A stretch of DNA of 64,000 nt from Octopus vulgaris (Eukaryota). Position 1 is the stretch's first letter. Every line of letters begins with the position of its first letter. The notes beneath the pieces are model-generated. The model worked only from the letters and a program-made list of their open reading frames with translations. It was not told the origin of the DNA and searched no databases. The stretch lies in contig OX597843.1 in assembly GCA_951406725.2 (NCBI GenBank), forward strand, positions 5,456,001-5,520,000, written 5' to 3'. A program made the position numbers and the translations under genes. Below, in pieces: positions 40,946 to 53,937 of the stretch.

Positions 40946-43784
40946 AACAAGTGCTCGTACAAATAGCTGCCAAGTTTCTGGCAAATTTCTATAAAAGTGA
41001 GCCATGACAACGTTTAATAATATAGTCTAGGTCACTACAGTTATGTCTGAAAGGGAGGAAAAGCGAAGGGGCTGGTGTTAAAACAGTAAGGGCTTGTACT
41101 ATGTATCACATTGTTGCACGCATGGATTCAAACTTGCCCTATCGCGCACCCTACACCCTTTCTCTTTCCCCACACACGCATATTACACATATATATAAAT
41201 AATAAATAATATATATATTTATACCATTTCTTCCTAACATATAGGTAGATAGATAAATAGATAGACAGACAGATAGATAGATAGACAGGTAGATAGATAG
41301 ATAGATAGATGGAGAGAGACAGACAGATAGATAGGTAGATAGGTAGGTAGAAAGATAGATAGATACCACACTTATAATTGGTTTCGGTATAACTACTGGT
41401 TCGTATATTAATTTTGTTCTTGTGATAATATTTTCAATACATATACAAATATGGTTTTGCATTTATCGATTTTACAAATGGATTTAGCTAAGTAGCTAAT
41501 CTCCGTATATTTATTACACTCGAATAAATTACTAATATTTGTGTGTGTATGTGTATATATATACGGAATCTTAATTATATATATATATTGCTGATTACCT
41601 TAAAATTTTGTTTTAGAATTTAATAAAACATGTAGCTTGTCTTAAAAGATTCTACAGTAGTTTTCGAAGCCATCAAATTGCGAAGTCGTTGATTATTTTT
41701 AAAAATTAAAAATTATATTTTTACTTTTAATAATTGGGAATTCGTCGAGAGACGTCACTGTGCAATCTGCCCATATTATTTAATATCAACATCTATATTT
41801 ATTATTTAGAGATATATTATAATTAATATATTTAATATATATATATATATATATATAACATACATAATATATAAATATATATATATAATTAATATCTTAA
41901 TATCAATTATGATGTGGATAATGGCTACGAAGTTATACCAAGTGCGTGATTAATTATAAGCAACAAAATAACCTTCTAACTATTCAATAAATGTTAGGCT
42001 TTGCACTTGTATTGAGTCCTTTAACTACCCACATATCATTGTTAAGTCTCTGGAGTATAAAAATATTGATTCTTTTTTTTAAACAATTATGTATATATAT
42101 ATATGTGTGTGTATATATATATATATATGTATATATATATATATATATATATATATATATATATATATATATTGGTTAATATCTATATATGTGTGTGTTT
42201 ATTAATAAATATATTTATATTTAAGTGTGTGTGTGTGTGTGTGTGTGTGTATACATGTATCAAATACTTATATACGTATATAGAACACAGCACATATTCG
42301 CATTTTGTGTTGGTATTTTATAGATTTCTTTAATTTCCGTTCCAGCTTTTCTACAGACCTTCGTCATAAGTGTTAACTAATTTAATTAATTTTTAGAGTT
42401 TCTCATTGAGTGAGCTTGCACGTGATAAAGGTTCGTTATGTTTTAATTTTTGCCTTTTTTTTTTTAATTAGAAATAAATATCTTTAATTAAATTAAGGAA
42501 TTGCGTATGTGTGTGTCTGTGTGAAACACGTGTGTGTTGCCGGTACACATATATACAGATATATATATATTTTATATATATATATATGAAGTTGCAGTAC
42601 TACTAATATAGTAGTAGCACCCGAAATATATATGTACGTGCGTATGTTTCAATCGGTTGAAATCACATTTGCTTCCCAACAGCATTGTTCTGGGTTCAGT
42701 CCCACTGCACGGCACCTTGGACAAGTGTTTTCTACTACGACCCCTGGCGAGACCAAAGACCTGTGAGTGGATTTTGTTTCAGTCATTTGACTGTGGCCAT
42801 GCTGGAGCACCGCCTTTAGTCGAGCAAATCAACCCCGGCACTTATTCTTCGTAAGCCTAGTACTTATTCTATCGGTCCTTTTTTGCCGAACCGTTAAGTT
42901 ACGGGGACATAAACACACCAGCATCGGTTGTCAAGTGATGTTGGTGGGGGGGGACAAATACAGACACACAAACATACACACACACACAAACACATATATA
43001 CATATATACGACGGGCTTCTTTCAGTTTCCGTCTACCAAGTCCACTCACAAGGCTTTGGTCGGCCCGAGGCTATAGTAGAAGACACATGCCCAAGGTGTC
43101 ATGCAGTAGGACGGAACCCGGAACCATGTGGTTCATAAGCAAGCTATTTACCACACAGCCACTCCTACGCTTAGCAACATTTCATCCACCTTTATGTCCT
43201 GAGTTCAAATTCCGCTGAGGTAGACTTTGCCTTTCATCCTTTCAGAGTTGATAAAAATAGGCACCGGTTGAACACTAGGGGGTTGACTTAATCGATTCAT
43301 CCCCTCCCACAAAACCACTGCCCTTGTGGCAAAATTTGAAACATCATCATCGTTTAGCGTCCGCTTTACATGCTGGCATGGGTTGGACGGTGCAGCTGGG
43401 GTCTGGGAAGCCAGGAGGCTGCACCAGGCTCCAGTCTGATCTGGCAATGTTTCTACGACTGGATGCCCTTCCTAACGCCAACCACTCTGTGAGTGTAGTG
43501 GATGCTTTTTACGTGCCAGACGAGGCTGGCAAACGGCCATGATCGGATGGTGCTTTGTACGTGCCATCGGCACGGAAGCCGGTCGGGGTGGCGCTGGCAA
43601 GGGCCACATTCGGATGGTTCTCTTATGTGACACCAGCACTGGTATCACAGCTACAATTTCCATTGATGTTGATCGATTTTGATTTTGATTTTGATTTTAT
43701 TATTATTGTTGTTATTATTATTATTATTGTTATTATTATTGTTGTTGTCTTTTTTCTGTAGACGCTGTGGAAACTGAACAGGAA

Positions 43785-44634
43785 ATGGGTCGAAATAAAA
43801 CGGAATCTGAAAATGAGAATAGTCAAAGCAAGGCAGGGAAAGCCGTCGACAAGGATGCATCTTCGAATTCCCCGACCAAGTCCGACGTGACAAAACCTGT
43901 AGAGAACGGTAAAAATTCCTTGTCGAAGAAGAAGGACGGGGAAGAAGTGGAGAAAAGCTCTCCTTCCACAGACGTCCAAACCGCGGATAAATCAGACCAG
44001 GAAAGCTCCAGTGCGCCGGTTGAAGGAGAGGACGAAGTTGAAGGAGAGGACGAAGCGACCACAGACACGAATGAAAAGCAGAAAGAAAACCCTGAGGCAC
44101 AAGTGGAAGCTTCACAGCAGACAGCGCCAGCTATGATTGTACCTCAAGTTGTAGTTAAGAGGGGCCGTGGTCGTCCCAGGAAAAACCCATGCAAAATTGA
44201 GTCACCAAAACCGAAACGAGGTCGTGGCCGACCCCCAAAGAGCCTCTCACAGAAAGCAGCCCCTGGTACTGCACCCGGGCTTTCGTCCTTGTCTGCTGCC
44301 GAGAGGAGTAAGATTGTCAGCGAGCAGATGTCTGAGATAACCGTGAAGAACGAGGCTTTTACCGATTGCGAAGAGAACGACGAATACCAGAAAGTGAATC
44401 ATGGCCATTCTACGGTGAACGGAGACATGGCGGCGCGGAGCAAGAGCCGCAGCTTGCCGTTCAGGAAATCTAAAAGACGATCAATACCAAGAATTAATCT
44501 GGAAGACTTTGAAGACGATAGTGAGGAAGAACCTGTTCGAAAGAAACGGTCAACAAAGCCAAAGAAATTCCCGCCCAGTGGACCACGACTGAAAATTACT
44601 CCACCATCTGCTTCGAAAAAACTCCGAGAGACAG
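43785..44634 (+). CDS. AT-hook/NECAB-like gene: large coding exon with two AT-hooks
   Basis: Acceptor TTCTGTAG at 43761, first in-frame ATG at 43785; KRGRGRPRK and KRGRGRPPK AT-hooks; basic NLS-like stretches; donor G|GTGAG. Confidence 0.85.
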
Positions 44635-44729
44635 GTGAGATGTAAATTTTTAATAATTAAACATTTTACTTTATTCTCATTTAACGGTATTTTCCGATGT
44701 TGTTATTATTATTATTATTATTTACTTTA

Positions 44730-44870
44730 TTTACATTTGATGGATATTTGTCCTCATCTTGTTTGTTGTTAATACTTAACATTTCGGCTGATATACCCTC
44801 CAGCCTTCATCAGGTGTCTTGGGGAAATTTAGAACCTGGGTTCTCATTCCTAAGGTATTTTTCGATGTTA
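44730..44870 (-). mobile_element. Penelope-like terminal repeat fragment with minimal hammerhead motif (second copy 45347-45490)
   Basis: Minus strand GACAC-CTGATGA-AGGCTG-loop-CAGCC-GAAA; copy 2 has CTGAAGA; both sit in (TAA)n tracts. Confidence 0.7.
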
Positions 44871-45599
44871 TTATTATTATTATTATTATTATTATTATTA
44901 TTATTGAGTGAGCGAGCAGTGCATGCCATCAAAGTGACACTGGGGTCAAATATACGAAGCCCAGTATACCCATCATGACTACCCGTCTGATAAGGGTACA
45001 CCAGGCTCTTGCATCACAACCATATGTGCGCGACATGGTGATCTCATATCAAGATAAACAGCACATGACCTTGCAGGTGGGGCCCAGTTAGAATTTTCTT
45101 CGGATCGAGTAACCCATCCCGCTCAAAAAGAGCCCTGAATAAGGGTTGTTTAAGGACGTTGAACGAAACACCCATGTTTCCAGAGGTGAATTATTCAAAC
45201 CCCAAAGAATCCCTCTCAACACATGGCTATGATGCTCCCCCACTACTTCTGCTCATGATCAGAGATGCACATATCGTCAGCCACTAAGGGACATGCTCAA
45301 CTGGTTAAGGTCAAACAACTGACAATTATTATTATTATTATTTACTTTATTTACATTTGACGGATATTTGTCCTCATCTTGTTTGTTGTTAACACTTAAC
45401 ATTTCGGCTGATATACCCTCCAGCCTTCTTCAGGTGTCTTGGGGAAATTTAGAACCCGGGTTCTCATTCCTAAGGTATTTTTTGATGTTGTTATTATTAT
45501 TATTATCATTATCATTATTATTATTATTATTATTCAGGTCACTGCTTGGAATCAAACTCCGAATCTTGGGGTTAGTAGCCTGCGCTCTTAACCCCAAAA

Positions 45600-52552: not shown

Positions 52553-52970
52553 GTAACGTCTAGAATCACTGTGTGTGTTTACGTCATCATCATCATCATC
52601 ATCTGTCGTTTATTAAACTGCTAATCTATATATATATATATATATATATATATATATATATATAATAATAATAATAATATTAGGAGTAAATCCAAACTTA
52701 CAGAGAAAAAATTAGATTTAGGATTAAATCTAATTTTATAGTATAAATATATATTATATTAAATTAGAGATAAAACCACTATTAGGCAAATCAAACTGAA
52801 AATCATAAACCAATACATAGAAATAAAATTAATTAAAAAAATATAAAATATAAAAAAAATTTTTAATATTTTTTTAATAAATTTTATTTCTATGTATTGG
52901 CTTATGTTTTTCACTGTTTGATTTGCCTAATAGTGGTTTTATCTCTAATTTAATATAATATATATTTATA

Positions 52971-53233
52971 TAAAGTATAGAAGCCATCTTAACATGGCTA
53001 ACCACATAGGGGAGGGGGTGTTACTGTAGCTTTATAGCCCCAGGAGATCGGTGTCTCCAGCTGGCTTTAGACACCATTTCAGTGCCCTTGAAGTATTTGC
53101 AAAGGGAGGCTATCCCTTCCTCGCAAGCCTGAGTGATACGCTCGGACTAGTTTCGGGATTTTTGTCCCTTGTCAACGGGCGGTAACCACCAGGTCGCGAT
53201 GGGAGGGGGTGTTAAGATGGCTTCTATACTTTA
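52971..53233 (-). mobile_element. Penelope-like fragment with 24-bp inverted ends and a decayed hammerhead
   Basis: TAAAGTATAGAAGCCATCTTAACA...TGTTAAGATGGCTTCTATACTTTA; body related to 59207-59408. Confidence 0.6.
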
Positions 53234-53911
53234 CATTATCGAGCGATTACTGTTTCAATCTCATTCTGAGATTTAATTATGCTATATATATATATATATA
53301 TATAAGAAATGCTGTACGTTCGTTTAAATAATTAAAAACCACCGGTCACATGGTATGCACGAGTTTTATGTGAACTTGTCAGGTTTTTGGGTTTTTTTTA
53401 AATTTTCTATTTCAATCAAAATAATCAGGGACACACAATTAATTCCATTGCTACAGAGTTACAGATGAGATAATGTTGCCAGGAATACCTGCATCGGGCA
53501 TGGTTTTATTCAACATGTTCCCCCTCTCAGAATCACACACTTATTGCAGTGGTCCTTCAGTTTTTCTAAGCCCTGTAAAAGAACTTGGAAAGTTGTGCCC
53601 CTGCCACCCTCAAGAAAAGAAGTGTGCCCTTCTAACCAAAGTTATTATGCTCTTTTCTTCTAGAATTGTATTCCCTTCTGGCTTTGTGCCCTCCCTTCGG
53701 AAAATTCTAGGGACCTTGTCCGATACAGGTATTCCCTGCAACACTATAATTGCACACACACACATACATATTTACACGCACATCTGTAGTGATGATGATG
53801 ATGATGATGATGATATAAATGCCTTTTTTTCCATGACCCCCCCCTTTTTTTTACATATTTATCTTTCTTTTTTAGATATATTTTAATGCCCTTTTTTTCC
53901 TTCTTTCGCAG

Positions 53912-53937
53912 CTTCCTGGTGGCAAAAATGCAGCTAA
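53912..53937 (+). CDS. AT-hook/NECAB-like gene terminal exon
   Basis: TTCGCAG|CT TCC TGG TGG CAA AAA TGC AGC TAA completes TMSIPASWWQKCS*, matching the NECAB C-terminal TMLVPASWW motif. Confidence 0.85.

What the first reader, a model, noticed from the sequence alone, without database searches (positions are those of the whole stretch)
43762..53937. AT-hook + NECAB coiled-coil/ABM chimeric protein with no EF-hands
Seen: seven phase-consistent exons, six of them short and mostly missed by the ORF track, give about 427 aa: disordered N-terminus, two AT-hooks, basic NLS-like tracts, then QVDRLASLVDRLE, LLQR...ESGCL, FTVYEIW and a C-terminal TMSIPASWW. Known: NECAB proteins (neuronal, N-terminal EF-hands) carry this helix plus an antibiotic-biosynthesis-monooxygenase-like domain ending TMLVPASWW; AT-hooks bind AT-rich minor grooves. 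I am not aware of a NECAB with AT-hooks, and no EF-hand exon is visible between here and WRNIP1. Inference: an exon-shuffled NECAB paralog repurposed from calcium sensor to chromatin-tethered ABM protein in a (TA)n-rich genome.
Basis: partly seen in the sequence, partly recalled or inferred. Interest (0 to 1): 0.85.

Follow-up and report, generated by a model that had tools for sequence, protein, structure and literature searches.

The report
Cephalopod NECAB paralog with AT-hooks
Besides its ordinary calcium-sensing NECAB gene, this octopus has a second, spliced copy with DNA-gripping AT-hook motifs in place of the calcium-binding end; a distant relative has the same layout, and the protein likely works on DNA in the nucleus.

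Summary
Observation confirmed. Seven GT-AG exons give 427 aa: an acidic, low-complexity N-terminus, two Pfam AT-hooks, basic tracts, then the NECAB helix and ABM domain, with no EF-hand. Contigs from 4 of 4 runs join the AT-hook exon to the NECAB helix exon.

The genome also has a canonical EF-hand NECAB on another chromosome. It has the same last six intron phases and is 51% identical over the C-terminal 140 aa.

A 304-aa ortholog from public contigs has three AT-hooks plus ABM and no EF-hand. It is the only AT-hook protein among 69 NECAB-like cluster representatives. A tree places the duplication after the split from bivalves and before Octopus/Sepia (97/89). The ortholog's model has an ABM fold (Z 16.2). 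A His found in 40 of 49 other NECABs is Phe in all 5 cephalopod sequences.

Nuclear DNA binding, dimerisation and loss of catalysis are inferred. Exon shuffling is not shown: no donor was found. A link to (TA)n repeats is untested. Ten literature searches showed no description. Verdict: new variant of a known family; interest 0.58.

The parts
38980..39123 (+). Candidate non-coding first exon U1 (tentative)
   Evidence: Donor AAC|GTAAGT at 39124. The X14 contig has 143 nt upstream, which would start inside the (GA)n repeat, and its upstream exon does not end in G.
39842..40283 (+). Candidate optional leader exon U2 (tentative); if used, an in-frame ATG could add 29 aa, no EF-hand
   Evidence: 442 + 144 = 586 nt equals the upstream length of the X5 contig; it ends in TG, as three contigs require. 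Weak donor. Length fit only.
43762..44634 (+). Coding exon 1 (ATG 43785): acidic low-complexity region aa 1-120, AT-hooks around aa 125-133 and 144-152, conserved KS.R..IPRI and RKKR..PKK basic tracts
   Evidence: One contig per run covers it in 4 of 4 runs. Against run X20, 6 of 7 differences are synonymous.
46036..46097 (+). Exon 2: NECAB central helix (predicted coiled coil)
   Evidence: 70% identical to the canonical exon in alignment A2; joint from exon 1 seen; helix 154-181 in the ortholog model.
48553..48618 (+). Exon 3: acidic linker
   Evidence: Homologous to the 54-nt canonical exon, same phases.
50035..50144 (+). Exon 4: ABM first strand and helix
   Evidence: 110 nt as in the canonical gene; Pfam ABM 13.5 bits; 47% identical to the C1 paralog exon.
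51903..51980 (+). Exon 5: ABM, YE.W motif
   Evidence: 78 nt as in the canonical gene; Y378, E379 and W381 kept in 48, 48 and 47 of 49 others.
52461..52552 (+). Exon 6: ABM C-terminal helices and strand; F390 at the His column
   Evidence: 92 nt as in the canonical gene.
53912..53937 (+). Exon 7 coding part, ASWWQKCS-stop
   Evidence: 26 nt as in the canonical gene.

Best explanation
This is a spliced second NECAB gene, likely duplicated in early cephalopods, with AT-hooks in place of the EF-hands; it likely acts as a calcium-independent nuclear adaptor binding AT-rich DNA. Shown: gene structure, the first splice joint, homology to the canonical gene, an ortholog with the same layout, and purifying selection on exon 1. 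Predicted: the ABM fold (model of the ortholog). Inferred: the basic tracts import it into the nucleus; the hooks insert in AT-rich minor grooves; the helix and ABM pair two chains, giving four or more hooks per dimer; the helix/ABM surface recruits partners, possibly canonical NECAB; the ABM is a scaffold rather than an oxygenase.
For: Splice joint in 4 of 4 runs. Phases 1,0,0,2,2,1 and exon sizes 110/78/92/26 match the canonical C1 gene, whose 12 exons give P0013 exactly. 71 of 140 C-terminal residues are identical. Ortholog P0025 has AT_hook 22.3 bits, ABM 14.6 bits and no EF-hand, and it also starts MGR.K.E. Tree: paralogs 100/99, sister to cephalopod canonical 97/89; a clade of the window protein with octopod canonical NECABs is rejected, p-AU 1.3e-5. 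Against P0001 the hook region is 33 of 37 identical and the basic tail 59 of 64, versus 77 of 123 for the acidic N-terminus; 6 of 7 differences to run X20 are synonymous, p 0.007. ABM fold: Foldseek E 3e-7 to 1y0h, rmsd 1.7; VIA Z 16.2 to 2gff, rmsd 1.5 over 96 residues. AT-hooks bind AT-rich minor grooves (passages of 10.1101/854000; PMC10783490). Most prokaryotic ABM domains are dimers, and NECAB1 is partly nucleoplasmic (PMC11624857).
Against: No localisation, binding or expression-level data. AT-hooks can also bind RNA. Hook number differs, 2 here and 3 in the ortholog, and the rest of the N-terminus aligns poorly. Only one full-length ortholog cluster (2 members) was found, and its species is not given. 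The tree has two bivalves but no named gastropod or nautilus row. The model is of the ortholog, not of this protein; pTM is 0.43 and the N-terminus is low confidence. Pfam ABM stays below cut-off in both paralogs. The His-to-Phe change is shared with canonical cephalopod NECAB, so it says nothing specific about the new role.
Confidence: 0.6

Rival explanations
1. Same gene, but the hooks and basic tracts mainly bind RNA or serve as nuclear/nucleolar targeting signals, and the ABM acts in RNA-protein bodies rather than on chromatin.
For: AT-hooks contribute to RNA binding in Baz2A/B, and extended AT-hooks bind RNA. Long low-complexity charged regions.
Against: Canonical RGRP cores, twice here and three times in the ortholog, above the Pfam cut-off.
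Confidence: 0.17
2. The ABM domain is still an enzyme or small-molecule sensor, and the hooks deliver that activity to chromatin.
For: Intact predicted ABM fold; Y351, Y378, E379, W381 and P419 are kept. The review proposes an enzymatic role for NECAB ABMs.
Against: The His kept in 40 of 49 non-cephalopod sequences is Phe. Its catalytic importance is recalled from IsdG-type enzymes and was not mapped here. Identity to solved ABM proteins is only 4-19%.
Confidence: 0.13
3. It acts mainly as a calcium-blind antagonist or nuclear sink of canonical NECAB, by heterodimerising through the near-identical helix; DNA binding is secondary.
For: The helix segment RL.SLVDRLENRIN is almost invariant between the paralogs, whereas the ABM has diverged. 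The NECAB2 coiled coil mediates a partner interaction.
Against: No co-expression or interaction data; the hooks are as conserved as the helix.
Confidence: 0.08
4. The chimera is an artefact: assembly error, read-through, or a decaying partial duplicate.
For: No named database protein with this exon was returned; five of six joints were not seen directly.
Against: Joint in 4 studies; an independent full-length ortholog; open frame and synonymous excess.
Confidence: 0.02

Closest known systems
NECAB family (vertebrate NECAB1-3; the Octopus vulgaris NECAB1-like protein CAI9715127.1 = P0013)
   Same: Central helix, ABM domain, P..WW end; last six intron phases and four exon sizes match the genome's canonical gene; 51% identity over 140 aa.
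   Different: No EF-hands and no homolog of canonical exons 1-6; an 873-nt AT-hook exon instead; longer branches (0.29 each against 0.005-0.1 at the tips).
HMGA-type and other AT-hook proteins (PF02178; e.g. BRG1 AT-hook-bromodomain, Baz2A/B)
   Same: Several RGRP hooks in a charged low-complexity chain, next to a folded domain.
   Different: The partner domain is ABM. No sequence relation outside the hooks: other hits covered only 11-30% of exon 1. HMGA's small size and C-terminal acidic tail (recalled) are not matched.
Bacterial ABM / dimeric alpha-beta barrel proteins (LsrG, Rv0793, SnoaB, IsdG, YgiN)
   Same: Predicted fold, Z 12-16 and rmsd 1.5-2.9 over 92-98 residues for these five.
   Different: 7-16% identity; fused to helix and hooks; Phe at the family His column; activity untested.

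Membership tests
NECAB | [quoted passage not shown] | tested here: not met
   No Pfam EF-hand in six of seven exons scanned (exon 7 too short) or in the ortholog; no upstream canonical exons. Exon 1 needs a phase-1 upstream intron, whereas canonical exon 5 ends in phase 2. Leader exons were not read directly.
NECAB | Central coiled-coil helix | tested here: met
   helix in the ortholog model. Coiled-coil pairing itself was not modelled.
NECAB | C-terminal ABM domain | tested here: met
   Homology E 2e-42 to P0013, whose ABM passes the Pfam cut-off; fold of the ortholog model. Pfam scores of the paralogs are below cut-off.
NECAB | Descent from a NECAB gene | tested here: met
   Shared intron phases and exon sizes; tree.
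AT-hook proteins (PF02178) | GRP core flanked by basic residues, above the Pfam cut-off | tested here: met
   21 bits against 17.4; 21.1-22.3 bits in P0001, P0025 and P0094.
AT-hook proteins (PF02178) | Binding to the AT-rich minor groove; nuclear location | not testable with these tools
   Needs a bench test.
ABM monooxygenases | Ferredoxin-like split beta-alpha-beta fold | tested here: met
   (ortholog P0025, residues about 200-304).
ABM monooxygenases | Homodimeric barrel | not tested
   No complex model was obtained.
ABM monooxygenases | Catalytic or heme-binding residues | tested here: inconclusive
   His (40 of 49) is Phe in 5 of 5 cephalopod sequences; equivalence to a catalytic His is recalled, not mapped structurally.

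The most novel reading that the evidence does not exclude
Coleoid cephalopods turned a neuronal calcium-sensor adaptor into a dimeric, multi-AT-hook chromatin architectural protein that can also draw canonical NECAB into the nucleus. That would be a lineage-specific link from neuronal calcium signalling to AT-rich chromatin, and the simplest natural construct for finding what the animal ABM domain does.
Probability: 0.15. Interest if true: 0.85.

Novelty: new variant of a known kind. Interest (0 to 1): 0.58.

Why it matters
The function of the NECAB ABM domain is an open question (PMC11624857, section 18), and that review describes only single NECAB-like proteins in invertebrates (section 17). 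A conserved cephalopod paralog that keeps helix and ABM but trades calcium input for AT-hooks suggests the C-terminal module is a portable adaptor, and makes that testable. It is also a concrete example of a cephalopod-specific gene built by duplication and domain replacement.

Tried and rejected
- Exon 1 as an expanded canonical exon 7 (the IVPGRV.RRA.RQ linker): profile scores were not above shuffles (window 158 and 231 of 1000; P0025 665 and 572 of 1000). Of six pairwise tests one reached 16 of 500 uncorrected, the rest 112-418 of 500; an earlier test gave 204 of 500. Not supported, not excluded.
- Donor for exon 1: only itself in the genome; elsewhere only P0001 plus hook-only hits. The ESM Atlas gave no usable hit for the hook region and ABM clusters at 0.78-0.82 for the whole ortholog, a lead only.
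- Further paralogs in the genome: searches with exon 4, P0013 and P0025 found only the C1 and C30 loci; short exons are easily missed.
- PDB sequence search with exon 4: one weak ABM hit, E 0.038.
- No run was listed as RNA on record; contigs give no expression level or tissue.
Other donors considered (33104, 33396, 33542, 40429) lie in or beside repeats and were judged less likely.
- The complex predictor was not available, so homo- or heterodimer formation is open.
- Earlier scan notes: none by words or sequence.
- Literature: NECAB+ABM 8 papers; NECAB+AT-hook 5, incidental (42); NECAB+octopus 7, 2 listed, neither about cephalopods (57); full name+cephalopod 0 (58); AT-hook+coleoid+novel gene 0 (74); NECAB+dimer+ABM domain 1 (75); ABM+AT-hook 0 (93); NECAB+mollus 3, unrelated by title (94). 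One search was too loose: 0 NECAB mentions in the 20 of 1,403 listed. One search was for AT-hook background.
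Full report
Setting. The window is G000:C30:5456001-5520000 in a 2.8-Gb genome. A protein encoded exactly by this genome's C1 is named as Octopus vulgaris NECAB1-like, so the organism is an octopus.

Gene model. Seven exons with canonical boundaries splice to 427 aa from ATG 43785, with phases 1,0,0,2,2,1. Residues 1-120 are acidic and low in hydrophobic residues; 121-160 hold 14 K/R and two RGRP cores. 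Pfam gives AT_hook above cut-off on exon 1 and a sub-threshold ABM on exon 4. Two RGRP cores arose in 0 of 20000 shuffles.

Transcription. I laid 4 of the 20 listed runs, one from each of four studies, on 42270-46200. Each has one contig that covers exon 1 without gaps and jumps the 1401-nt GT..AG intron into exon 2. The tool calls these runs 'RNA?' or '?'; the precise intron skip indicates spliced RNA. Beyond the laid part of exon 1 the contigs continue 486, 486, 486 and 493 nt. Exons 2-7 predict 437 nt to the stop, and 49 more end inside the 3' simple repeat. Upstream they carry 594, 586, 143 and 652 nt. These lengths and the terminal bases fit a first exon ending at 39123 with an optional 442-nt exon at 39842-40283. 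This is a length fit made after seeing the data, and it is tentative. Neither candidate encodes an EF-hand; the second could add 29 in-frame residues.

Canonical paralog. Exon 4 found a second locus on C1. Its 12 exons translate to P0013, 370 of 370 residues, which has EF-hands and ABM above Pfam cut-offs. The last six intron phases and the exon sizes 110, 78, 92 and 26 equal the window gene's. The C-terminal 140 aa are 51% identical. Its N-terminal 230 aa find nothing upstream of exon 1 (best E 0.33), while the control recovers 5 of 6 downstream exons. Canonical exon 5 ends in phase 2, whereas exon 1 here needs phase 1.

Distribution. Exon 1 is single-copy in the genome. It has one full-length relative, P0001 (73%, unnamed, apparently ending in intron read-through); the other 11 hits covered only the hooks. 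No named protein with this exon came back, although the collection holds canonical NECABs of three Octopus species. This is weak evidence, because the search is word-limited. A profile of the C-terminal part returned 69 representatives. The top hit, P0025 (304 aa; 2 members on 8 and 2 Logan contigs), is the only one of 69 with an AT-hook pattern. It has three hooks, weak ABM and no EF-hand. It shares MGR.K.E, KRGRGRPR, KS.R..IPRI and a basic tract in which the window's RKKRSTKPKK faces its third hook. Members hidden inside other 50% clusters were not seen.

Dating. The tree used 54 of 73 sequences; 19 with under 120 aligned residues, or no hit at E 0.001, were dropped, including Tegillarca and Bulinus. 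The two AT-hook proteins group at 100/99, sister to Octopus, Argonauta and Sepia canonical NECABs (97/89), with two bivalves outside (99/93). An octopod-only duplication is rejected (p-AU 1.3e-5). The chosen outgroup was not one side of a branch, which does not touch these nodes. A His-to-Phe change shared by all five cephalopod sequences (His in 40 of 49 others) agrees with this placement. The species of P0025 is not given; its distance (0.58) suggests a distant coleoid, which is inference.

Selection and structure. Against run X20 (a different organism code), 6 of 7 exon-1 differences are synonymous, with 33% expected (p 0.007). Against P0001 the hooks (33 of 37) and basic tail (59 of 64) are better kept than the acidic start (77 of 123). 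AlphaFold2 on P0025 with 50 sequences gives a low-confidence N-terminus, a helix at 154-181 and a domain at 201-300 with pLDDT above 90. That domain matches ABM proteins (Foldseek E 3e-7; VIA Z 16.2, rmsd 1.5 over 96 residues). The window's own spliced protein was not folded.

Mechanism. AT-hooks insert in AT-rich minor grooves, often beside a folded domain, and some bind RNA (passages of 10.1101/854000 and PMC10783490). Most prokaryotic ABM domains are dimers, the NECAB2 coiled coil binds a partner, and NECAB1 is partly nucleoplasmic (PMC11624857, passages and sections 17-18). I infer a calcium-independent nuclear adaptor whose helix and ABM dimerise and recruit partners while the hooks hold AT-rich DNA (0.6). 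Rivals are RNA binding (0.17), a chromatin-delivered enzyme (0.13), an antagonist of canonical NECAB (0.08) and artefact (0.02). Dimerisation was not modelled. The origin of exon 1 is open: no donor was found, and homology to canonical exon 7 is not significant.

Novelty. It descends from NECAB but fails the defining EF-hand test, so it is a NECAB-derived variant rather than a regular member. Ten searches of open full text showed no description. Papers other than the three named were seen as listings only. Subscription papers, database annotations under generic names, and supplements of cephalopod genome papers were not seen and may list the gene. Interest 0.58.

Noticed in passing
window 32833-33254: 59-nt terminal inverted repeats (97%), extending inward, with flanking direct duplications: a MITE-like element near the 5' end of the AAA-ATPase gene.
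   Followed up: partly
window 46863-48468: Tandem array, 127-nt period, 12.6 copies, in intron 2.
   Followed up: partly
window 40230-40945: Repeat family with at least 169 matches, mostly on C28-C30 and often tandem with about 214-nt spacing; includes a 93-nt x 4.2 array.
   Followed up: partly
window 3713-9288: PR/SET domain exon (Pfam PRDM2_PR) followed by a long degenerate zinc-finger array across two frames; covered by an earlier finding.
   Followed up: partly
window 58123-59196, minus strand: 357-aa low-complexity ORF with a charged, helix-like C-terminal stretch; no Pfam hit.
   Followed up: partly
P0039, P0041, P0059, P0082, P0089: EF-hand + ABM NECAB-like proteins with long N-termini; P0082 is labelled Chloroparvula japonica and P0059 comes from MMETSP, suggesting the family extends beyond animals (contamination not excluded).
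   Followed up: no
P0013, P0026, P0028, P0032, P0036, P0075: [quoted passage not shown]
   Followed up: partly
G000:C1:52975650-53084995: The canonical cephalopod NECAB also has Phe at the column where 40 of 49 other NECABs have His.
   Followed up: partly
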